Assembly: GCA_902478455.1 (NCBI GenBank) | Contig: CABSLJ010000001.1 | Location: forward strand, 1 to 57,759 | Direction of reading: 5' to 3' | Length of the DNA: 57,759 bases | Source of the DNA: an uncultured Oscillospiraceae bacterium | GTDB lineage: Bacteria; Bacillota; Clostridia; Oscillospirales; Acutalibacteraceae | Shown here: piece by piece, positions 3,656 through 25,323 of the stretch | Numbering within the stretch: position 1 is the stretch's first letter | How the letters are laid out: the number at the start of each line of letters is the position of its first letter | Notes under the pieces: model-generated | What the model was told of the DNA's origin: nothing | What the model saw: the letters and a program-made list of their open reading frames with translations, nothing else | The model's database searches: none | Position numbers and translations under genes: made by a program

Positions 3656-5602
3656 GTGTTGAAAAAAAGAGTATGGATCGTGTCCCCGGTGTTTTACGTG
3701 CTCATTGCGGCCATGCTGCTCATGGCCGGCGCGAGCTGGTTCTGGGATGAGCGCGTCTTTTTTGCCGAGCTGGGGCTTGCGGCCGCCTGCGCGGTGGCGG
3801 TGCTCATCAGCCTCTTGAAATTCAGGAGTTATGTGCGCACCGTCGCCAAAAGCGCTGGCGGGATGCTCAGCGGAATCGACAAGAACGCCATGGAGCACTT
3901 TCCCGTGGCGGTCGCTGTGGCCGGAGAAGCCGGCGAGCTCGTGTGGAACAACCTCGCCTTCGCGGCCAGAGTGTGCGGCGAGCGGGACCATACGGGGGAG
4001 AGCGTGCTCCAGTTTACCGAGGGGAAGTCGATCCAGCAGATTTTAAGCCACAACGGCACCGACGTCTCCTACGGCAGCCGGCGCTTTACCGTCTTCGGCG
4101 CCGAATCGGGCAGCTCCACCATCCTTTATTTCATAGACGATACATATTACAAGGAGACCACCCAGGAATACAGCGAAAGCCGTCCCGCCGTGGCCCTCAT
4201 CCTGTTTGACAACCGCGAGGAGCTGGCGCGCGACGCGACCGACGAGCAGGAGGCCCAGATCACCGCTCAGGTGGACAACGCCCTGCAGAAGTGGGTGGCC
4301 AAGACCTCCGGGTTCCTGCGCAAAATCAGCGGCGGCCGCTACCTGATGATTGTTCAGGAGCGCAACATCCGCTCCTTTGTGGAAAATAAATTTGAAATTC
4401 TCGATGAAATCCGGAGCATCAAGCTCGACGAACGCCGCAGCGCCACCATTTCCATCGGCGTCGGCCGCGGCGGTGGCTCCTTGAAGGAATGCGAGGCGTG
4501 GGCCCGCAAGGCGCTCGATATGGCCCTCGGCCGCGGCGGAGACCAGGCGGCCGTCAAGCAGGGGGAGACTTACGCCTTCTTCGGCGGCGTGTCCAAGGGC
4601 GTGGAAAAGCGGGATAAGGTCCGTACCCGCGTCATCGCGTCCACGCTGTCCGACCAGATTCGCATAAGCGACTGCGTGCTCATCATGGGTCACCGCTATT
4701 CCGATTTGGACAGCGTCGGCGCGTCGGTCGGCATGTGGGGGGCGGTCACCAGAGGACTGGGCAAGCCGGCCTATGTGGTGGTCAACCGGGAGCAGACCCT
4801 CGCGCGCGTGCTGGTGGACAACGTCGAACAGGCGGAGGGGGAAAACGTCTTTATTTCCACCGAGCAGGCCGAGTCGGTGCTCACCGACAACACCCTGCTG
4901 ATCATTGTGGACACCCATTCCCCCGACTTCGTTGAAAGCCGCAGCCTGTATGAAAAGGCCAAGCGCGTCGTGGTCATCGACCATCACCGCATGATGGTCA
5001 GCCACATCAGCGACGCGATCATCTTCTACCACGAGCCCTACGCCTCCTCGGCCTCCGAGATGGTCGGCGAGCTCGTGCAGTATCTGGGCGAAGAGGGCAT
5101 CGGCCGCGTCGAAGCCGAAGCGCTGCTCGCCGGCATTATGCTCGACACCAAGAATTTCGTCCTGAAAACCGGCGTGCGCACCTTTGAGGCCGCCGCCTTT
5201 CTGCGCCGCAAGGGGGCGGACACGGTCGAGGTCAAGCGCCTGTTCTCCAATTCAATTGACACCTACAAGGCCAAATACCAGCTGGTTTCCTGCGCGGAGA
5301 TCTTCCATCAGTGCGCCATCGCCATCGCGGAGGACAATTTTCCGGACATCCGCATCGCCTCCGCCCAAGCGGCAGATGAGCTTTTGGGCGTTCAGGGCGT
5401 GCGCGCTTCCTTTGTGCTCTATCCCACCGAAGGGGAGATCAACATCTCCGCCCGCTCGCTCGGCGAGGTCAACGTGCAGGTCATCATGGAGGAACTAGGC
5501 GGCGGCGGACACCAGACTATGGCGGCGGCCCAGCTCAAGGGCGTCACCGTGCCCGAGGCGCGCGACCGGCTGATCGCCGTCCTCAGCGAGGCTAAAATTT
5601 AA
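3656..5602 (+). CDS. gdpP: cyclic-di-AMP phosphodiesterase GdpP (TM-PAS-degenerate GGDEF-DHH/DHHA1)
   Basis: Lies in ORF 3650..5602. It has two N-terminal TM helices, a DHH motif (VVIDHHR), DHHA1 (GGGGH), and a degenerate GGDEF-like middle domain. It sits directly upstream of rplI-dnaB, as in Bacillus yybT. The start is ambiguous (GTG 3650/3656, TTG 3659); GGAGG lies at 3646-3650. Confidence 0.85.
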
Positions 5603-5721: not shown

Positions 5722-6168
5722 ATGAAAATCATACTGCTCGAAGACGTCAAGGGCATCGGCAAAAAGGGAGAGCTGAAGGAAGCCTCCGACGGCTACGCCC
5801 GCAACTACCTCTTTCCCCGCAAACTTGCCAAGGAGGCCAACGCCCAGGCGATGAACGAATTCAAAAACGCCGAGCGCGCCAAGCAGCACAAGATAGAGAC
5901 CGAAAAGGCCAACGCCCAGGCCGCCGCCGCGCAGCTGGAGGGCAAGACCGTCAAGCTGACCGCCAAGGCCGGTCAGGGGGGCAAGCTCTTCGGCTCGATT
6001 ACGACCAAGGAGATCGCCGAAACGATCCGGAAGGATTTCGGCCTGGATATTGACAAACGCAAGCTGGAACTCGCCGGGGATATCAAGTCCTTCGGCACCT
6101 ATGAGTGCGAGGTAAAGCTCTACGCCGGCATTTCGGCGAAGCTTTTCGTGATGGTGGGCGAGGAATAG
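5722..6168 (+). CDS. rplI: 50S ribosomal protein L9
   Basis: 148 aa. The sequence [36 protein letters not shown] is the classic L9 N-domain. An RBS (GGAGGAAAC) lies upstream. Confidence 0.97.
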
Positions 6169-19179: not shown

Positions 19180-21429
19180 ATGCCCCCCAGAAAGAAAAAA
19201 CCGGACGAGGCCAAACAGCCGCCCCTTTCGCAGGCGCACGGCGTCATCGAGGGCGCGGGAGAGATCGTCGACCAGCCGATCATCAGCACCCTCGAGCAGA
19301 ACTACATGCCCTACGCGATGAGCGTCATCCTGTCGCGCGCCATCCCGGAGATCGACGGCTTCAAGCCCAGCCACCGCAAGCTGCTCTACACCATGTACAA
19401 GATGGGACTGTTAAACAGCGGGAGAACCAAATCGGCCAACATCGTCGGTCAGACCATGAAGCTGAATCCCCACGGTGACGCCGCCATCTACGACACCATG
19501 GTCCGTTTAAGCCGTGGCTATGAGGCGCTGCTGCACCCCTTTGTCGATTCCAAGGGCAATTTCGGCAAGTTTTATTCGCGCGATATGGCCTGGGCCGCCT
19601 CCCGTTACACCGAGGCCAAGCTCGACGCCATCTGCCAGGAGCTCTTTCGCGACATCGACAAGGACACCGTCGATTTCGTCGATAATTACGACAATACCTT
19701 AAAGGAGCCCACTCTGCTCCCGGCGAGCTTCCCGTCGGTGCTGGTCAACGCCAACACGGGCATCGCCGTCGGCATGGCGAGCTCGATTTGCTCCTTCAAC
19801 CTCCGCGAGGTCTGCCAGACCACCGTCGCCCTCATGCGCGACCCGGAGCACGACATCGCCTCCACGCTGCTCGCGCCCGACTTCACCGGCGGAGGACAGA
19901 TTCTCTACGACCGCACCGCGCTCGACACTATCTACCGCACCGGCCGCGGCGGCATCAAAGTCCGCGCCCGCTATACCTACGATGCCTCGGCCAACTGCAT
20001 CGATGTTTCCAGCATCCCGCCGACGACCAGCGTCGAGGCCATCATCGAAAAAGTCATCGAGCTGGTCAAGCAGGGAAAATGCAAGGAAATCGCCGATATC
20101 CGCGACGAAACCGGCCTCGACGGCCTCAAGATCACCATCGACCTCAAGCGCGGCGTCGACCCGGACAGGCTGATGCAGCGTCTTTACCGCATGACCCCGC
20201 TGGAAGACACCTTCTCCTGCAACTTCAACGTCCTCATCGTCGGCGTCCCCCGCGTGATGGGCGTGCGGGAGCTTTTGGAGGAATGGGTGGCCTTCCGCAT
20301 TGAATGCGTCCGCCGCAGAACCCATTTCGACCTCGTCAAAAAGCAGGAAAAGCTGCACCTGCTCAAGGGCCTTCAGCGCATCCTGCTGGACATCGACAAG
20401 GCCATCGCCATCGTGCGCGGCACGGAAGAGGAGAGCGAGGTCGTTCCCAACCTCATGATCGGCTTCGGCATCGACCAAATCCAGGCCGAATATGTCGCCG
20501 AGATCAAACTGCGCCATTTAAACCGGGAATATATCCTCAACCGCATCGCCGAGATCGAAGCCCTCGAAAAGGAGGTCGCCGAGCTTCAGGGCATCCTCGG
20601 CAGCAAGGCGAAGGTCAAATCGATCATCATCTCCGAGCTACAGGAGGTCGAACGCAAGTACGGCCAGCCGAGAAAGAGCATGCTGATCTATCCCGATGAA
20701 ATCGAGGAGGCCGAGGAGATCGAGGAAATTCCCGATTATCCCGTCCATCTCTTCTTCACGGAGGAGGGCTATTTCAAAAAGATCACCCCTCTCTCCCTGC
20801 GCATGAGCGGAGAGCAGAAGCTCAAGGAAGGCGACAGAATCGCCCAGGCGGTGGAAACCACCAACAATACCGACCTGCTCTTCTTCTCCAGCCGCTGCCA
20901 GGTCTACAAGGCCAAAGCCTCCGATTTCCCGGACACCAAGGCCAGCGTTCTGGGCGATTACATCCCCGCCCGGCTGGGCATGGAGGAGGGGGAGACGGCC
21001 GTGTTCATGGCTGTCACCAGGGAGTACGACGGCTACATGCTCTTCTTCTTTGAAAACGGCAAGCTCGCCAAGGTGGATATGAACGCCTACGCCACCAAGA
21101 CCAACCGCAAAAAGCTCACCGGCGCGTACAGCGACAAATCGCCCCTTGTTTCAGCCGTCTACGTCCACAATGATCTGGAATGCCTGCTGACCGCCTCCTC
21201 CGGCCGGATGCTTCTGGTGCACACCGGAGCGGTCGCTCCAAAGTCGACCCGCAACACCCAGGGCGTGGCGGTCATGACCCTGAAGCGCGGCCACCGGCTG
21301 CTTTCCGCCGAACCCTATGCCGAGGACCGCTTCGCCAAGCCCAACCGCTACCGCACCAAGACGTTGCCGGCCGCCGGCGCGCTGCCCGCCGCGGAGGATA
21401 CCTCCGGCGAGCAGCTGACCATGGAATAA
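19180..21429 (+). CDS. type IIA DNA topoisomerase subunit A (ParC-like, no GyrA box seen)
   Basis: 749 aa. Contains MPYAMSVILSRAIPEIDGFKPSHRKLLY, HPHGD-like NPHGDAAIYD, and the catalytic Tyr context AASRYTEAKL. The beta-pinwheel CTD is short, and I could not find a QRRGGKG-type GyrA box. Confidence 0.85.
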   Translation: MPPRKKKPDEAKQPPLSQAHGVIEGAGEIVDQPIISTLEQNYMPYAMSVILSRAIPEIDGFKPSHRKLLYTMYKMGLLNSGRTKSANIVGQTMKLNPHGDAAIYDTMVRLSRGYEALLHPFVDSKGNFGKFYSRDMAWAASRYTEAKLDAICQELFRDIDKDTVDFVDNYDNTLKEPTLLPASFPSVLVNANTGIAVGMASSICSFNLREVCQTTVALMRDPEHDIASTLLAPDFTGGGQILYDRTALDTIYRTGRGGIKVRARYTYDASANCIDVSSIPPTTSVEAIIEKVIELVKQGKCKEIADIRDETGLDGLKITIDLKRGVDPDRLMQRLYRMTPLEDTFSCNFNVLIVGVPRVMGVRELLEEWVAFRIECVRRRTHFDLVKKQEKLHLLKGLQRILLDIDKAIAIVRGTEEESEVVPNLMIGFGIDQIQAEYVAEIKLRHLNREYILNRIAEIEALEKEVAELQGILGSKAKVKSIIISELQEVERKYGQPRKSMLIYPDEIEEAEEIEEIPDYPVHLFFTEEGYFKKITPLSLRMSGEQKLKEGDRIAQAVETTNNTDLLFFSSRCQVYKAKASDFPDTKASVLGDYIPARLGMEEGETAVFMAVTREYDGYMLFFFENGKLAKVDMNAYATKTNRKKLTGAYSDKSPLVSAVYVHNDLECLLTASSGRMLLVHTGAVAPKSTRNTQGVAVMTLKRGHRLLSAEPYAEDRFAKPNRYRTKTLPAAGALPAAEDTSGEQLTME

Positions 21430-21477
21430 TGGGGAGCGATCCCGCTTGTCCAAACGAAACAGGCCGCCCTTTTTCTT

Positions 21478-21740
21478 GCATTCCCCCGGAATGCGTCCCG
21501 ATGCGCTCATGCCGCGCGGGGCTTTTTCCCGCTTCGGCGGGGGATGATGTCAGGGGATTTCTCCGGTTCCCCTGCCCTGTTTCATGCATTCCCCTGGAAT
21601 GCGATTGTATGCGCTCATGCCGCGCGGGGCTTTTTCCTGCTTCGGCGGGGGATGATGTCAGGGGATTTCTCCGGTTCCCCTGCCCTGCTTCATGCATTCC
21701 CCTGGAATGCGGTTGTATGCGCTCATGCCGCGCGGGCAGT
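21478..21740. repeat. tandem repeat, 108-bp unit, about 2.4 copies
   Basis: Units start at 21478, 21586 and 21694, each beginning with GCATTCCCC(C/T)GGAATGCG. Copies 1 and 2 are near-identical. Copy 3 diverges after GCCGCGCGGG into the long inverted-repeat arm. Confidence 0.9.
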
Positions 21741-21947
21741 TTCTTCTTTTGCTGGTGCAAAAGAAGAAACCAAGAAAAGCACCTTCGGACCGGCTTACGT
21801 GTACGCTGCGCGTACAAAATGCCGGTCCGATGCTTCCCCGGAAGTTCAGGTGCAATGGGGTCGGCCAGGTGTAAACCGGAGGAATGAAGCCCGACTCCAT
21901 TGCCGAAGCGACTGCTCTACGCGGCGTTGCCGACACCCCGTGGTTTT
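21713..21947. repeat. left arm of a long imperfect inverted repeat
   Basis: From TTGTATGCGCTCATGCCGCGCGGGCAG to CCCCGTGGTTTT. It matches the reverse complement of 22757-23055 in three conserved blocks separated by a variable insert. Confidence 0.85.
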
Positions 21948-22043
21948 AGAAACACACCCGGGAAAGATCAGAATCAGGTGTGCCTGGTTTCAGCTTTTGA
22001 TTCAACAGGCCGCCTTTGTGTTTTTTTGCTCTGCAAATGCCCT

Positions 22044-22337
22044 CTATGCCAGCACGCCGACATTCTTGAGCAGCCAAACGCAGTCTTTAAAACCCTGACG
22101 GTAAAGAAGCTCTGTTTCATGCTCGGCGGCTGTGCCCAACTCGAGAAGCACTTCGTCCACCATATCCTTCTCGTCTTTTGTCAGATTGGTGCTGAGCATT
22201 TCATCCAGATATTCTTGCCTCACGCTTCGGTACTCATATTCCTTTGTGCCCTTAAGTCCTTCTAATGCGCAAGAGAGTAAATTTCCCAAAAACTCGTTCC
22301 ATTCTTCATTTCTGTTCATAACTTTCATTCCTTTCAA
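22044..22337 (-). CDS. small acidic helical protein of unknown function (91-97 aa)
   Basis: ORF 22044..22337(-). The likely start is ATG 22319 or 22328, after AAAGGA. The protein ends in LYRQGFKDCVWLLKNVGVL. It has no TM segment and no recognisable catalytic motif, and it sits in AT-richer DNA. Confidence 0.55.
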   Translation of the reverse strand: MKGMKVMNRNEEWNEFLGNLLSCALEGLKGTKEYEYRSVRQEYLDEMLSTNLTKDEKDMVDEVLLELGTAAEHETELLYRQGFKDCVWLLKNVGVLA

Positions 22338-22460
22338 AGCTCAGTCAACCCTTGAAAGAATTTGCAGCGCATGGTATGATATTTACGCTGTAACTGTCTT
22401 TCAGACGGTTGCTGTGTGGGGGAAGCGGCTTTTCTTTTGAGAGATGGGAGCCGCTTCCTT

Positions 22461-22649
22461 TCATTTTTCTTTGAAATTGCTCAGCTTGGCATATAAAATG
22501 TCAATGCCTTCCCTCACAATTTCTGACCGCGATTTTCCTGTAATCCTACAACAAAAATCAAGCCGTTTCAGTTCGTCTGCTGTCATTTTTGTTTCAACAC
22601 GCATTTGTCTTGGATTGTCAGAACGCGGCCTTCCTGTTCTCGGACTCAA
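22461..22649 (-). CDS. ribbon-helix-helix (CopG/Arc-like) DNA-binding protein
   Basis: 62 aa with a TTG start after GAGGTG. GRPRSDNPRQMRVETKMTADELKRLDFCCRITGKSRSEIVREGIDILY fits the RHH pattern (beta strand, then two helices). Confidence 0.65.
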   Translation of the reverse strand: MSPRTGRPRSDNPRQMRVETKMTADELKRLDFCCRITGKSRSEIVREGIDILYAKLSNFKEK

Positions 22650-22667
22650 TCCATCACCTCACTTTTC

Positions 22668-22708
22668 ATCCGTATATAAATTATATTTTTATACGGATAA
22701 AAAGTCAA
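22668..22708 (-). promoter_or_regulatory. consensus promoter with overlapping palindromic operator for the RHH cassette
   Basis: Minus strand: TTGACT (22708-22703), 17 nt, TATAAT (22685-22680). The inverted repeat ATCCGTATA (22668-22676) / TATACGGAT (22690-22698) brackets the -10. Confidence 0.7.
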
Positions 22709-22756
22709 TAGAAAACACAAAATTTTAATTCACTTTTGTATCTCAATCGATTTCCT

Positions 22757-23055
22757 AAATCCACGGGGCATCGGTAGATATACGTAGAGCAGCCACTTCG
22801 GCAATGGGGTCGGGCTTTATTCCCCTGGTTTACACCTGGCCGACCCCATTGCACCTGAGCTGCCGGGGAAGCACCGGACCGGCGGTCGTTGCACGACGGC
22901 ACACGCCTGCGGCGCGACTCTCTTGGAGAGATACAGTAAATGACTTGTTTACTGATTCTTTTTGAGAGGCTCACCGGAGGTGCGTACCGTTGTGTAACAA
23001 CCTTCTTTTGCACCAGCAAAAGAAGAACCTGCCCGCGTGGCACGAGCGCATACAA
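22757..23055. repeat. right arm of the long imperfect inverted repeat
   Basis: The reverse complement reads TTGTATGCGCTCGTGCCACGCGGGCAGGTTCTTCTTTTGCTGGTGCAAAAGAAGG ... CCGGTCCGGTGCTTCCCCGGCAGCTCAGGTGCAATGGGGTCGGCCAGGTGTAAACCAGGGGAATAAAGCCCGACCCCATTGCCGAAG ... CCCCGTGGATTT. Confidence 0.85.
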
Positions 23056-23059
23056 TCTC

Positions 23060-23113
23060 TTGACAAACCCAGTGTTACGATTATAATTGATATATCAACT
23101 ATTGATATATCAA
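23060..23113 (+). promoter_or_regulatory. marR-operon promoter plus duplicated palindromic operator
   Basis: TTGACA (23060-23065), 16 nt, TATAAT (23082-23087). Two copies of the 12-bp palindrome TTGATATATCAA lie at 23087-23098 and 23102-23113. Confidence 0.7.
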
Positions 23114-23128
23114 GAAGGAATGGGATGG

Positions 23129-23572
23129 ATGGAACGCACCTTTCACATGCTGCTCTACCGCGCTTTTCACGCACAGCGGAAATATTTGCGCCGGTGCATG
23201 GCGGAAATCGGACTGGGCGCGGGGCAGCCGAAGCTGATTTCCTATCTTGCGGCGCATGGCCCCTGCCGGCAGCGGGAGATGGCGGATTATTTTGAGGTGG
23301 ACCCGGCTGCGGTCTCCCGGATGCTGGAAACGCTGCAAAAGGGCGGCTTCGTCACGCGGCGCACGGACGGGCAGAGCCGGCGCTGCGATTTGGTCGAACT
23401 CACCCCCAAGGGGAGGCAGGCCAACGAGGCGTGGCAGCAGCGCTGCCGGGAGATGGAGAGCGTCATGCTGCGTGACTTTCCTCCCGGGGATCGGGAGCGC
23501 TTCGCGGCCTATCTGGCGCGCGCCTACCAGAATCTTCGGGCGTGGGAGGAGGAGCACCCGTGCGGGATTTAA
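23129..23572 (+). CDS. MarR-family transcriptional regulator
   Basis: Lies in ORF 23087..23572. The winged HTH is GQPKLISYLAAHGPCRQREMADYFEVDPAAVSRMLETLQKGGFVTR. The start is ATG 23129 (or 23120) after AGAAGGA. Confidence 0.85.
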   Translation: MERTFHMLLYRAFHAQRKYLRRCMAEIGLGAGQPKLISYLAAHGPCRQREMADYFEVDPAAVSRMLETLQKGGFVTRRTDGQSRRCDLVELTPKGRQANEAWQQRCREMESVMLRDFPPGDRERFAAYLARAYQNLRAWEEEHPCGI

Positions 23573-25323
23573 AAACGCTTTTGCGCTATCTGGGACCCTA
23601 TCGCAGGGACCTGTTGATCGGGGCGCTGCTGGTGCTGGTGGAAACCGCGTTTGAGCTGGTCATCCCCGTGCTGATGGCCGACCTCATCGACGTTGGCGTG
23701 GCGAACCGCGACATCGGCCATATCCTGACGCAGGGCGCGCTGATGGGACTGTGCGCCCTGTTTTCGCTGGCCACCGGCCTGCTGTACGCCCGGTTTGCCG
23801 CCCGCGCCGCCTACGGCTGGGGCGCGCGCATCCGGGAGGCCCAGTATGAAAAGGTGCAGCAATACGCCTTTTCCAATCTGGACCATTTCGACAGCTCCTC
23901 TCTCGTCACCCGCATGACCACCGACGTGACCGTGCTGCAAAACGCCGTCAACGGCGGACTGCGTCCGCTGGTTCGCAGTCCTGTGATGTTCTTGATGGGC
24001 TTGGGGCTCTCCTTCTGGATGAACCCGCAGCTCGCGCTGGTGTTTGTCGTGTGCGCCCCGGTTCTGGCGGTGATCCTCGTCTGGGTGGTCCGCAAGGTGG
24101 CTCCCATGTACGGCCGCCTGCAAAAGGCGGTGGACCGCCTCAATCACGTGGTGCAGGAGGGACTTACCGCCATTCGGGCGGTCAAGGCCTTTGTCAGGGG
24201 AAAATATGAGGAAGAGAAATTCCAGGGGATCAATGAACAGCTGATGGCGACCAGCCAGAAGACCTTCCACTACGCCGTGCTGAACCTGCCCGCCTTCCAG
24301 CTGACCATGTATCTTTCCATTGTGCTCATCATGTGGTTTGGCGGAAATATGATCCTGAATTCTCAGCTTCAGGTGGGAGAACTCACCGGCTTTTTGAGCT
24401 ATGTTCTGCAGGTGATGAATTCCCTGATGATGATCACCAACGTCTTTCTGCTGCTGACCCGTTCCCTCGCCAGCGCCCGGCGCGTCGCCGAAGTGCTGGA
24501 GGAGGAGATCGTCCTCACCTCTCCGGAGCATGCGGTTATGGAGGTACCCGACGGCGACATCGATTTTGAGGGGGTCTCCTTCAAATACCGCCCGGAGGCA
24601 AAGGAATACGCTCTTTCGGATGTCAATCTCCACATCCGGCCGGGGCAGACGGTGGGGATTCTGGGCGGTACCGGCTCGGCCAAGACTACCCTTGTTCAGC
24701 TCATTCCCCGCCTGTACGACGTTACCGAGGGGAGCGTCCGGGTGGGGGGCCGGGATGTGCGCGAGTATGACCTTCAGACACTGCGGGACGCGGTTGGCAT
24801 CGTCTTGCAGAAGAATGTGCTGTTTTCCGGTACTGTGCGGGAAAATCTCCTCTGGGGCGACCCGGACGCCGACGACGAAACCCTCTGGGCAGCCTGCGAA
24901 GCGGCCTGCGCCGACGAATTCCTCAAACGGATGCCCGGCGGCCTGGACGCCGACCTCGGGCAAGGGGGCGTCAATGTGTCCGGCGGGCAGAAGCAGCGCC
25001 TGTGCATTGCCCGTACCCTGCTCAAGCGTCCGCGGATTCTGATTTTCGACGATTCCACCAGCGCGGTGGACACCGCAACCGAGGGGAAAATTCGTGCCGC
25101 CCTCGCCAAGCGCACCGACGTAACCAAAATCATCATCGCTCAGCGCGTCACCTCTGTTATGGGCACCGATCAGATCGTCATTCTGGACGACGGCCGCATC
25201 CACGCTGTGGGAACTCATGAGGAGCTGCTGGCGCACGATGAGATTTATCAGGAGATTTACGCGTCTCAGATGAAAGGAGGGGAAGCGTATGGCGGCACGT
25301 CAGCTCAGTGCGAAGAAGCCTAA
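23560..25323 (+). CDS. ABC exporter, fused permease/ATPase (type I exporter half-transporter A)
   Basis: GTG 23560 follows GGGAGGAGGAG. It has a six-TM ABC_membrane domain, Walker A (GGTGSAKTT), the signature VSGGQKQR, and Walker B (ILIFDDSTS). Confidence 0.9.
   Translation: MRDLKTLLRYLGPYRRDLLIGALLVLVETAFELVIPVLMADLIDVGVANRDIGHILTQGALMGLCALFSLATGLLYARFAARAAYGWGARIREAQYEKVQQYAFSNLDHFDSSSLVTRMTTDVTVLQNAVNGGLRPLVRSPVMFLMGLGLSFWMNPQLALVFVVCAPVLAVILVWVVRKVAPMYGRLQKAVDRLNHVVQEGLTAIRAVKAFVRGKYEEEKFQGINEQLMATSQKTFHYAVLNLPAFQLTMYLSIVLIMWFGGNMILNSQLQVGELTGFLSYVLQVMNSLMMITNVFLLLTRSLASARRVAEVLEEEIVLTSPEHAVMEVPDGDIDFEGVSFKYRPEAKEYALSDVNLHIRPGQTVGILGGTGSAKTTLVQLIPRLYDVTEGSVRVGGRDVREYDLQTLRDAVGIVLQKNVLFSGTVRENLLWGDPDADDETLWAACEAACADEFLKRMPGGLDADLGQGGVNVSGGQKQRLCIARTLLKRPRILIFDDSTSAVDTATEGKIRAALAKRTDVTKIIIAQRVTSVMGTDQIVILDDGRIHAVGTHEELLAHDEIYQEIYASQMKGGEAYGGTSAQCEEA

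What the first reader, a model, noticed from the sequence alone, without database searches (positions are those of the whole stretch)
21713..23055. AT-richer two-gene cassette bracketed by ~235/300-bp imperfect inverted repeats, wedged between the topoisomerase A gene and the marR promoter
**What the sequence shows**
- Positions 21713-21947 and the reverse complement of 22757-23055 share three long conserved blocks.
- Block 1: TTGTATGCGCTC(A/G)TGCC(G/A)CGCGGGCAG(T/G)TTCTTCTTTTGCTGGTGCAAAAGAAG.
- Block 2: CCGGTCCG(A/G)TGCTTCCCCGG(A/C)AG(T/C)TCAGGTGCAATGGGGTCGGCCAGGTGTAAACC..AAGCCCGAC(T/C)CCATTGCCGAAG.
- Block 3: CTGCTCTACG ... CCCCGTGG.
- The ~800 bp they enclose is visibly AT-richer than the surrounding ~60% GC chromosome.
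- This interior carries its own consensus promoter and two small minus-strand genes.
- No transposase, integrase or invertase is present anywhere in the window.
- The right arm ends 5 bp from the -35 of the marR/ABC-exporter promoter.

**Possible interpretations (inference)**
- A non-autonomous composite mobile cassette, with MITE-like arms mobilised in trans.
- A segment that can invert by recombination between the arms.
- Two convergent copies of a structured RNA gene that captured a cassette.

I do not recognise the arms as any known IS end, attC, riboswitch or RNA family.
Basis: seen in the sequence. Interest (0 to 1): 0.78.

Follow-up and report, generated by a model that had tools for sequence, protein, structure and literature searches.

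The report
Recombining repeats flanking a mobile-element relic
Two inverted copies of a hairpin-rich repeat, found so far in one uncultured gut bacterium, flank a two-gene leftover of a mobilizable element. They appear to swap partners with two more copies elsewhere in the chromosome, so this looks like an ordinary repeat-driven recombination hotspot rather than a new transposon or a catalogued RNA.

Summary
Arms at 21713-21952 (+) and 23055-22752 (-) are imperfect inverted repeats around a 0.8-kb AT-rich interior. The interior has its own promoter and two minus-strand genes.

The interior is an orphan piece of an integrative mobilizable element (IME): an autoregulated RHH repressor plus a 91-aa DUF6809-like helical protein. 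In relatives this pair sits directly after a MobV relaxase.

The arms are not IS or MITE ends: they have no terminal inverted repeats and no target duplications. They match no Rfam family. They are two of at least four copies of a non-coding unit, 243 nt (short) or 307 nt (long), sometimes preceded by 106-108-nt tandem sub-repeats. The other two copies lie between alr and purL.

Metagenome contigs show three things:
- mosaic arms, which indicates gene conversion;
- a solo arm upstream of marR joined to purL, with no cassette;
- the reciprocal junction, with alr-side repeats joined to the cassette.

All four junctions fit one crossover inside a 120-nt identical stretch, that is, a chromosomal inversion polymorphism by homologous recombination. 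One short contig suggests the cassette itself can flip.

Evidence that the unit acts as an RNA is inconclusive. The family is narrow and of modest interest.

The parts
21466..21736 (+). Tandem array of 2.5 copies of a 108-nt sub-repeat directly downstream of parC. Each copy begins with the first 24 nt of the unit (TTGTATGCGCTCATGCCGCGCGGG). Copy number differs between contigs, from about 1.5 to 4.5.
   Evidence: TRF and the repeat finder. L004 lacks one copy and L079 has more.
21713..21952 (+). Left arm: a short-form copy (243 nt) of the hairpin-rich non-coding unit, sense on the + strand. It ends CCCCGTGGTTTTAGAA.
   Evidence: RNA fold energy is -113.5 kcal/mol, z = -5.45. The alignment gaps of 6 + 58 nt are not a multiple of three, so no ORF is conserved between the arms.
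21953..22043 (.). Spacer between the left arm and the stop codon of the 91-aa gene. It has no similarity to the IME homologues.
   Evidence: BLAST of the interior against IME loci aligns only interior positions 84-477 and about 650-763.
22044..22319 (-). Gene for a 91-aa acidic three-helix protein, weakly DUF6809-like. Function unknown.
   Evidence: 60 homologues, nearly all 91 aa. Pfam DUF6809 E = 0.045; phrog_28204 E = 2e-5. AlphaFold2 mean pLDDT 86.7, three helices. No PDB fold match at E <= 0.001.
22320..22460 (-). Intergenic leader between the two cassette genes. Its proximal part of about 60 nt is conserved upstream of 91-aa/DUF6809-type genes in IMEs.
   Evidence: Interior 369-510 is 78% identical to L017 6012-6152. 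Direct repeat D1 in L017 lies at 3933-3991 and 6094-6152.
22461..22649 (-). Gene for a 62-aa ribbon-helix-helix (CopG-type) repressor.
   Evidence: Pfam RHH_1 E = 8e-4; phrog_876 'transcriptional repressor' E = 2.6e-12. A 59-aa homologue sits in the same position in the IME loci.
22661..22708 (-). Cassette promoter (TTGACT-17-TATAAT, 22708-22680) overlapping a 21-nt palindrome (22661-22705), the probable RHH operator.
   Evidence: An equivalent palindrome (ACTTTCTGTCCG.../...CGGACAGAAAGT) lies upstream of the RHH gene in L011.
22752..23055 (-). Right arm: a long-form copy (307 nt) of the same unit, sense on the - strand. Its 5' end lies 4 nt from the marR -35.
   Evidence: RNA fold energy is -134.9 kcal/mol, z = -5.69.
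22884..23001 (.). Self-complementary segment of about 117 nt that distinguishes long-form from short-form units.
   Evidence: nhmmer matches this segment to itself on the opposite strand, E = 7e-9.
22796..22915 (.). Stretch of the right arm corresponding to the 120-nt segment that is identical between the marR-side unit (L001) and the truncated unit next to purL (L083). This is the crossover interval of the inferred inversion. The window's own allele differs here in a small hairpin.
   Evidence: Four-way alignment of L001, L083, L082 and L006. Allele differences are shown.
23060..23113 (+). marR promoter (TTGACA-16-TATAAT, 23060-23087) followed by two TTGATATATCAA palindromes (23087-23098 and 23102-23113). 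This is a boundary, not part of the repeat.
   Evidence: The same promoter is present in Ca. Avimonas, which has no unit.

Best explanation
**What the arms are**
- They are two of at least four copies of a low-copy, hairpin-rich, non-coding repeat unit in one uncultured Oscillospirales species.
- The unit comes in a short form (243 nt) and a long form (307 nt).
- Some copies are followed by a tail of about 60 nt. Some are preceded by 106-108-nt tandem sub-repeats that re-use the unit's first 24 nt.
- In genomes arranged like this window, copies L and R lie between parC and marR. Copy A and a 5'-truncated copy dB lie between alr and purL.

**What the interior is**
- The AT-rich interior is horizontally acquired DNA: an orphan module of an integrative mobilizable element.
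- It holds an RHH repressor with its own promoter and operator, and a 91-aa DUF6809-like helical protein.
- In relatives this pair sits directly downstream of a MobV relaxase.

**How it works**
- The units act as substrates for general (RecA-type) homologous recombination.
- The arms convert each other, giving mosaic alleles.
- A reciprocal crossover between R and dB, within a 120-nt identical stretch, re-joins marR to purL and joins the cassette to the alr-side repeats. That is a chromosomal inversion, polymorphic between samples.
- The inverted-repeat bracket in the window is one state of this system. It is neither a transposon end pair nor a site-specific switch.

**Shown versus inferred**
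- Shown: repeat anatomy, IME origin of the cassette, a solo arm without the cassette, all four junction types, and mosaicism.
- Inferred: RecA-type recombination as the agent, the inversion (rather than some other rearrangement) as the link between the configurations, and loss of the rest of the IME by deletion.
- The units probably act, if at all, as co-transcribed 3' hairpin blocks, like BOX or BIME elements.
For: **Anatomy and significance**.

**Cassette comes from an IME**
- Homologues P0002 and P0008 (76-77% identity) lie in Int - NikA-like - AAA_25 - Mob_Pre - RHH(59 aa) - 91 aa - cargo (restriction-modification or ThsB) - TnpV/DUF6809.
- The operator palindrome is conserved.
- The arms are absent from those loci.

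**The unit exists without the cassette**
- L025, L026 and L082 carry purL - terminator - tail - unit - marR. They are 99.4-99.6% identical to the window from 22784 rightward.

**Second locus**
- L083 comes from the same sample as the window-type contig L001. It reads alr - 38-aa ORF - sub-repeats - unit A - tail - truncated unit dB - tail - purL.

**Reciprocal junctions**
- L082 = R left part + dB right part.
- L006 = dB left part + R right part.
- The switch falls inside 120 identical nt.
- The window-type arrangement is seen in 4 metagenome samples, and in the window contig itself. The other arrangement is seen in 3 samples.

**Mosaic arms**: L009L carries an R-type middle and L007L carries the window-R hairpin allele.

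**Not an IS end, MITE or known RNA**
- No TIR or TSD.
- No Rfam hit.
- No phage or plasmid DNA match.
- No mobility genes in the window.

**Narrow distribution**
- 0 pattern hits in 185,579 species genomes and in viral contigs. The only JGI metagenome hit is the alr junction itself.
- The unit is absent from 44 related marR loci.
- Only 6 spurious-ORF relatives appear among 1.84 billion protein representatives. The five sequenced or traced map to these two loci.
Against: - The alternative configurations rest on short-read metagenome contigs that cross repeats. A 120-nt exact repeat can be mis-joined by an assembler.
- L006, L079 and L084 are short (0.7-1.5 kb), and L082 has only 2.7x coverage.
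- The single long-read contig (L085) stops at window 22707, before the right arm.
- Only about 90 kb of the genome was seen, so the copy number (four) is a lower bound.
- The relative orientation of the two loci on the chromosome is unknown.
- Two compensatory base pairs and strongly negative folding z-scores leave room for a selected RNA or ssDNA structure.
- How a 0.7-kb IME fragment came to lie exactly between two inverted units, both cut at the same position after CCCCGTGG, is not explained.
Confidence: 0.68

Rival explanations
1. The unit is a gene for a structured non-coding RNA of about 245-370 nt, present in several paralogous copies. The window shows two convergent copies with a cassette captured between them. 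The repeats are kept because the RNA does something, and recombination is only a side effect.
For: - Both arms fold far better than shuffles (z = -5.45 and -5.69).
- RNAalifold gives 54 pairs with 98.4% of cells paired. Two pairs (261/281 and 263/279) change on both sides and stay paired.
- A GUAA tetraloop hairpin is invariant in all 9 copies.
- Peripheral hairpins vary in length and sequence while their bases are kept.
- Copies carrying the tail end in a weak hairpin plus a T-run.
Against: - There is no Rfam match even at E <= 10.
- No sigma-70-like promoter lies upstream in the sense direction of any copy.
- The antisense strand folds equally well or better in 7 of 9 copies.
- The compensatory changes all come from one haplotype, and most pairs never vary.
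- No homologue was found outside one species, so conservation cannot be tested.
Confidence: 0.15
2. The whole structure is a non-autonomous composite transposon. MITE-like arms, mobilised in trans by a transposase encoded elsewhere, carry the two-gene cassette from site to site.
For: - Inverted arms bracket foreign, AT-rich DNA.
- A solo arm exists at marR.
- The block of sub-repeats, left arm and cassette is seen next to alr as well as next to parC.
Against: - Terminal inverted repeats are no better than shuffles, and there are no target-site duplications.
- The arms are GC-rich, and no transposase was found in the window.
- Every new junction lies inside homologous unit sequence, and both reciprocal products are found. 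That is the signature of homologous crossover, not transposition.
- The unit is absent from all other genomes searched.
Confidence: 0.06
3. The locus is a fixed, non-recombining relic. The alternative arrangements (purL-unit-marR, alr-repeats-cassette, flipped cassette) are chimeric joins made by metagenome assemblers at the repeats.
For: - Many contigs break inside the arms or sub-repeats (L005, L008, L010, L028-L032, L077, L078), so assemblers do struggle here.
- The crossover interval is an exact 120-nt repeat.
- Several key contigs are short or of low coverage.
Against: - The purL-unit-marR junction is identical in two independent samples, on contigs of 12.8 and 6.2 kb.
- The reciprocal junction appears in a third sample (L006).
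- In two of the three samples, parC-side contigs from the same sample stop before reaching marR, which is compatible with the alternative configuration (L078+L082, L005+L026).
- Mosaic arm alleles show that exchange between copies really happens.
Confidence: 0.15
4. The interior is a programmed invertible segment (an inverton) flipped by a site-specific recombinase acting on the arms. Flipping would switch expression of the cassette or of the marR/ABC-exporter operon.
For: - The interior is bracketed by inverted repeats and contains a promoter.
- L079 versus L006 suggests both orientations exist.
Against: - The arms are 240-307 nt, not the 10-40 nt typical of invertase sites.
- No invertase or integrase is in the window.
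- The cassette promoter and both genes lie inside the segment, so they move together.
- The marR promoter lies outside and keeps the same upstream unit sequence in both configurations. Flipping would therefore change no promoter-gene connection.
Confidence: 0.04

Closest known systems
BOX elements of Streptococcus pneumoniae / S. suis and other mosaic intergenic repeats such as BIME and NIME (PMC3049150)
   Same: - Modular build: an end module shared with a tandemly repeated inner module whose copy number varies between strains, then a terminal module.
- Non-coding and strongly base-paired.
- Some copies sit just downstream of genes, where they would be co-transcribed.
- They create spurious ORFs in annotations.
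   Different: - Only four copies at two loci are seen, against more than 100 dispersed copies for BOX.
- The units are much longer (243-370 nt plus 108-nt sub-repeats).
- They are GC-rich and have no terminal inverted repeats.
- They are known from one species only.
Chromosomal inversions by homologous recombination between inverted repeats such as rrn operons, IS copies or REP clusters (own knowledge)
   Same: - Reciprocal exchange occurs inside identical sequence.
- Both new junctions are recovered.
- The flanking genes are swapped: marR joined to parC or to purL.
- The arrangement is polymorphic between strains.
   Different: - The repeat is only about 0.2-0.3 kb, with a 120-nt identical core.
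- It is not an IS element or an rRNA operon.
- The size of the inverted segment is unknown.
MITEs and IS-flanked composite transposons
   Same: - Inverted arms bracket a small foreign cassette.
- A solo arm occurs elsewhere.
- The arms are highly structured.
   Different: - No TIR, no TSD and not AT-rich.
- No cognate transposase.
- The junctions lie inside the repeats rather than at their ends.
Integrative mobilizable elements of Firmicutes with a MobV (Mob_Pre) relaxase and a tyrosine integrase (PMC5704250; PMC12084326 for Faecalibacterium)
   Same: The two cassette genes, their promoter/operator palindrome and the leader before the second gene are homologous (about 72% nt, 76-77% aa) to the pair found directly after Mob_Pre in such elements.
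   Different: No integrase, relaxase, AAA_25, cargo or TnpV is present here. Only about 0.7 kb remains, so this is a relic or a domesticated fragment, not an element.
Invertons: invertase-driven invertible promoters or segments (own knowledge)
   Same: The segment is flanked by inverted repeats, contains a promoter, and there is a hint of two orientations.
   Different: - The arms are about ten times longer.
- There is no invertase.
- Exchange also occurs with remote copies.
- No promoter-gene connection changes.

Membership tests
MITE / IS-end pair | Terminal inverted repeats at the two ends of each unit | tested here: not met
   Best local match of the first 45 nt against the reverse complement of the last 45 nt scores 4-10. 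Shuffles give mean 5-6.5 and maximum 9-11. Tested for six unit versions, with and without the tail.
MITE / IS-end pair | Target-site duplication flanking the unit | tested here: not met
   The flanks of L, R, A and the marR/purL copy share no direct repeat.
MITE / IS-end pair | Many dispersed copies and a cognate transposase in the genome | tested here: inconclusive
   Four copies at two loci in about 90 kb examined. No transposase in 34 ORFs of the window. The rest of the genome was not available.
Any Rfam RNA family | Covariance-model match at or near the gathering score | tested here: not met
   0 matches at gathering thresholds in the whole window. In 21300-23300 only chance-level hits, at least 30 bits below threshold.
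Structured non-coding RNA gene (novel) | Covariation supporting a conserved secondary structure | tested here: inconclusive
   Of 54 pairs, 43 are invariant and 2 have changes on both sides, in three sequences of one haplotype. The covariation score of 0.080 exceeds all shuffles, but the sequences are close paralogues.
Structured non-coding RNA gene (novel) | Own promoter and terminator, and a preferred strand | tested here: not met
   No sense-strand sigma-70-like site upstream of any copy. The antisense strand folds as well or better. Only a weak terminator-like tail is present in some copies.
BOX-like mosaic intergenic repeat | Modular structure with a tandemly repeated inner module of variable copy number, and a stable predicted fold | tested here: met
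   (24-nt A-box + 84 nt) x 1.5-4.5 copies, then A-box + unit body. Folding z is about -5.5.
BOX-like mosaic intergenic repeat | High copy number dispersed through the chromosome | tested here: inconclusive
   Only two loci were found. The spurious-ORF search of 1.84 billion representatives returned 6 proteins; the five sequenced or traced map to these loci. No complete genome was available.
Site-specific invertible segment (inverton) | Short inverted repeats recognised by an invertase, usually encoded nearby | tested here: not met
   Arms are 240-307 nt. No recombinase domain was found in the window.
Integrative mobilizable element | Integrase plus relaxase/oriT module bounded by att sites | tested here: not met
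   Only the RHH and 91-aa genes are present. Homologous full elements (L011, L017) carry Int, NikA-like, AAA_25 and Mob_Pre.
Integrative mobilizable element (origin of the cassette) | Homology and shared local architecture with the IME accessory pair | tested here: met
   76-77% aa identity for the 91-aa protein. Same gene order, same spacing, a palindromic operator and a conserved leader.
Type II toxin-antitoxin pair (RHH antitoxin + toxin) | Second gene belongs to a recognised toxin family | tested here: not met
   No Pfam, PADLOC or PDB match to any toxin. The protein is an acidic three-helix bundle.

The most novel reading that the evidence does not exclude
The unit is a previously undescribed structured nucleic-acid element of about 245-370 nt, with an invariant GNRA-capped hairpin and variable peripheral stems. 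It would be maintained because it acts as an RNA, or as a folded single strand, that promotes or directs the exchange between its own copies. In that reading the parC/marR and alr/purL loci form a reversible chromosome switch, and the IME-derived RHH/DUF6809-like pair was recruited to it.
Probability: 0.07. Interest if true: 0.7.

Novelty: new member of a known kind. Interest (0 to 1): 0.33.

Why it matters
- It documents an uncatalogued, species-restricted structured repeat in a gut Oscillospirales bacterium.
- With junction-level resolution, it shows how a unit of about 0.25 kb with a 120-nt identical core appears to be enough to re-wire gene neighbourhoods between strains: marR next to parC or next to purL.
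- It also shows a small relic of a mobilizable element lodged between two such repeats.
- For metagenomics, it is a practical warning. These repeats break or may mis-join contigs, and they generate spurious 90-190-aa "proteins" that populate protein databases.
- It does not reveal a new mechanism. Repeat-mediated inversion and BOX-like repeats are well known.

Tried and rejected
**Searches that found nothing**
- Rfam at gathering and at permissive thresholds.
- blastn of 21440-23100 against plasmids and phages.
- Exact-pattern scans for the GNRA-hairpin motif in viral, genome and JGI metagenome collections: 0 hits.
- The 24-nt A-box pattern gave only one JGI contig, the alr junction, and none in viral contigs.
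- A word-indexed protein search with the arm's spurious translation.
- blastn and nhmmer of the unit against 44 marR loci of related species and against the IME loci.

**Look-ups that did not help**
- Exact look-up of the 97-aa ORF failed because its start was wrong. The true product is 91 aa.
- ParC look-ups only gave contigs that break in the sub-repeats.
- The hoped-for diverged copy (P0082) turned out to be an error-prone long-read contig of the same locus that ends before the right arm.

**Ideas tested and dropped**
- Ancestral gene order from relatives: none has parC, purL or alr near marR.
- A GC-skew switch at the locus: none.
- tRNA or tmRNA: none.
- Fold search for the 91-aa protein: only generic helical bundles.
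- Protein-coding arms: rejected, because the indels between arms are not multiples of three and no frame is shared.
- A strand preference from G-U pairs: rejected after folding the antisense alignment, which uses as many wobble pairs.
Full report
**1. The observation**

The sequence is as described. The repeat finder reports inverted arms 21821-21952 / 22752-22883 (132 nt, 85%) and 21713-21766 / 23002-23055 (54 nt, 94%). The alignment of the two arms shows long identical blocks separated by a 6-nt and a 58-nt gap. A 24-mer and a 29-mer taken from the blocks occur only here in the window, with none expected by chance.

The interior (21953-22751) has 38-47% GC. The arms have about 57% and the flanking genes 60-70%.

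On the minus strand the interior carries:
- a near-consensus promoter (TTGACT-17-TATAAT, 22708-22680), overlapped by a 21-nt palindrome (22661-22705);
- a 62-aa RHH gene (22649-22461);
- a second gene whose true product is 91 aa (22319-22044).

The marR promoter (TTGACA-16-TATAAT) starts 4 nt beyond the right arm.

Each copy begins with the arm's first 24 nt.

I tested 34 of about 45 ORFs of the window against Pfam. All hits are housekeeping genes (RNase J, GdpP, DnaB, TilS, HPRT, FtsH, ParE/ParC, MarR, ABC exporters, RNase R, SerRS, H+-PPase, a UvrD-type helicase and others). There is no transposase, integrase or invertase.

**2. The interior is a fragment of an integrative mobilizable element**

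The 91-aa protein has 60 homologues, almost all exactly 91 aa. For two of them (P0002 and P0008, 76-77% identity) the encoding contigs show the same small RHH gene followed by the 91-aa gene, directly downstream of a Mob_Pre (MobV) relaxase. The full order is tyrosine integrase - NikA-like - AAA_25 - Mob_Pre - RHH - 91 aa - cargo (Vsr/methylase/HinfI, or ThsB-TIR) - TnpV/DUF6809. This is the architecture of Firmicute IMEs (PMC5704250).

Nucleotide similarity to the window (about 72%) covers both genes and the promoter region only. The palindrome upstream of the RHH gene is conserved in kind. A leader of about 60 nt before the second gene recurs before DUF6809-type genes in the same elements.

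The 91-aa protein is weakly DUF6809-like. It is predicted with confidence as a three-helix bundle (pLDDT 86.7). It has no informative PDB, PADLOC or toxin match.

The AT-rich interior is therefore foreign DNA: an autoregulated RHH-plus-small-protein module that has lost the rest of its element. The arms are absent from the IME loci.

**3. The arms are copies of a low-copy structured repeat that exists without the cassette**

An exact look-up of the MarR protein returned contigs from two samples (L025/L082 and L026). In these, marR and its promoter are preceded by one long-form unit. Beyond the unit come a tail of about 60 nt, a terminator and purL, with no cassette and no parC. These contigs are 99.4-99.6% identical to the window from 22784 rightward.

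A profile search of 1.84 billion protein representatives with the spurious 183-aa ORF that gene callers place over the left arm returned only six proteins. Their contigs gave a second locus (L083), from the same sample as a window-type contig (L001). It reads: alr (divergent) - 38-aa ORF - 3.5 sub-repeats - unit A (short form) - tail - 35 nt - 5'-truncated unit dB - tail - purL terminator - purL.

The genome type represented by the window therefore has at least four copies at two loci.

Outside this species I found nothing:
- 0 hits for a 19-base motif in one genome from each of 185,579 species, in JGI metagenomes and in viral contigs;
- a single JGI hit for the 24-nt A-box, which is the alr junction itself;
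- no unit upstream of marR in 44 related species, whose best MarR identity is 71% (Ca. Avimonas, Fimivicinus, C. leptum and others);
- no plasmid or phage DNA match.

**4. What the unit is not**

- It matches no Rfam family, even at E <= 10.
- It is not coding: the indels between copies are not multiples of three.
- It has no terminal inverted repeats above shuffled controls and no target-site duplications. It is GC-rich. It therefore fails the defining MITE features listed in PMC3049150.

**5. Is it an RNA?**

Both arms fold much better than shuffles (z = -5.45 and -5.69). Nine distinct copies give a consensus of 54 pairs, including an invariant GUAA-capped hairpin. Two pairs are compensated on both sides.

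Against this:
- the compensations come from one haplotype, and 43 pairs never vary;
- the antisense strand folds as well or better in most copies and uses as many wobble pairs;
- no sense promoter precedes any copy.

I regard RNA function as unproven. The left arm and unit A lie downstream of parC and of a 38-aa ORF respectively. If transcribed, they would be 3' hairpin blocks, as proposed for BOX and BIME elements. The modular build (A-box + 84 nt, repeated, then A-box + body) also resembles BOX elements (PMC3049150). The copy number, however, is far lower.

**6. The units recombine**

(a) The copies are mosaics. L009's left arm carries the long-form middle and R-type loop. L007's left arm carries the hairpin allele of the window's right arm. 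Four or five alleles of one small hairpin are shuffled among copies.

(b) A four-way alignment shows a clean reciprocal pattern:
- The marR-side unit of a window-type contig (L001) and the truncated unit next to purL (L083, same sample) share 120 identical nt.
- L082 (and L026) equals the left part of the former plus the right part of the latter.
- L006 equals the converse: alr-side unit A - tail - dB left part, then the R right end, the RHH gene, the 91-aa gene and the inverted left arm.

These are the two reciprocal products of one crossover. If the two loci are inverted relative to each other on the chromosome, the event is an inversion.

The window-type arrangement is seen in four metagenome samples, and in the window contig itself. 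The alternative is seen in three samples. In two of those three, parC-side contigs from the same sample stop in the repeats, as that arrangement would predict.

(c) L084 shows a crossover nearer the 5' end, between A and R. L079 places alr and its sub-repeats next to the left arm on the 91-aa side. This is the opposite cassette orientation to L006, as expected if the 1.3-kb segment between two inverted units flipped in the alternative arrangement.

(d) Sub-repeat copy number varies from about 1.5 to 4.5.

**7. Caveats**

- All of this comes from metagenome assemblies. Many contigs end in these repeats. A 120-nt exact repeat can be mis-joined, and three of the informative contigs are under 1.6 kb.
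- The one long-read contig (L085) confirms the parC - sub-repeats - left arm - cassette order but ends at 22707.
- I could not establish the ancestral order: no relative has parC, purL or alr near marR.
- I could not establish the genome-wide copy number.
- I cannot explain why both cassette-flanking arms end at the same point (CCCCGTGG + TTTAGRAA), where other copies continue into the tail.

**8. Verdict**

The finding is real, and the arms are uncatalogued. The best-supported reading is ordinary in kind. A small family of structured repeats serves as a substrate for homologous recombination: gene conversion, a strain-polymorphic inversion, and possibly local flipping. A relic of a mobilizable element is lodged between two of the copies.

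It is neither a composite transposon nor a site-specific switch. RNA function remains possible but unsupported.

Novelty: a new member of a known kind (mosaic intergenic repeats and repeat-mediated rearrangement). Interest is modest.

Noticed in passing
window 21466-21736; L079 460-925; L083 10031-10358: The 106-108-nt tandem sub-repeat array differs in copy number between contigs, from about 1.5 to 4.5. It is present at both the parC and the alr loci. Each copy contains small hairpins (CCCGC-TTCG-GCGGG, CAGGGGA...TCCCCTG, GCATTCC...GGAATGC).
   Followed up: partly
window 22320-22400; L017 3933-3991 and 6094-6152: A conserved leader of about 60 nt (CGTAAATA..CATGCG.TG.AAAT..CAAGGGTTG....GAAAGGA) precedes both the 91-aa gene and DUF6809 genes in IMEs. 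It may be a shared promoter or a 5'-UTR element.
   Followed up: partly
window 23087-23113: Two copies of the palindrome TTGATATATCAA, 3 nt apart, overlap the -10 and 5' UTR of marR. They are a likely MarR operator. A related sequence (TCAATCATTGATCTATCAAT) is present in Ca. Avimonas (L033, about 2213-2232).
   Followed up: no
L083 9850-9966: A 38-aa ORF (MEILHRHPRPIAREESTSVSGDLDDFIFCDEEWYESER) with a good Shine-Dalgarno sequence lies between alr and the sub-repeats. Transcription from it would run into unit A.
   Followed up: no
L003 / L027 (sample ERZ28508961), region corresponding to window about 23570-24800: In this strain the first ABC-exporter gene after marR appears disrupted. A 233-aa ORF is called on the opposite strand, and only a 261-aa ABC_tran fragment remains. 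In L026 the second exporter gene is called at 590 aa rather than 614 aa.
   Followed up: no
window 1-21429: The gene content upstream is RNase HI, RNase J, GdpP, DnaB helicase, TilS, HPRT, FtsH and ParE/ParC. This cluster is often origin-proximal in Firmicutes, so the repeat-mediated inversion might be centred on the origin. No GC-skew switch is visible in the window.
   Followed up: partly
window 21544-22098 (+), 22705-23055 (-), 21272-21817 (-): Gene callers turn the repeats into 90-190-aa 'proteins' (P0074-P0081) that sit in public protein collections. They are artefacts, but they proved useful as handles for finding other copies.
   Followed up: yes
L082 1-800; L083 19400-20570: Phage Mu-like baseplate genes (Gp48, Baseplate_J) lie about 9 kb from the purL-side unit, so a prophage is near the second repeat locus.
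   Followed up: no
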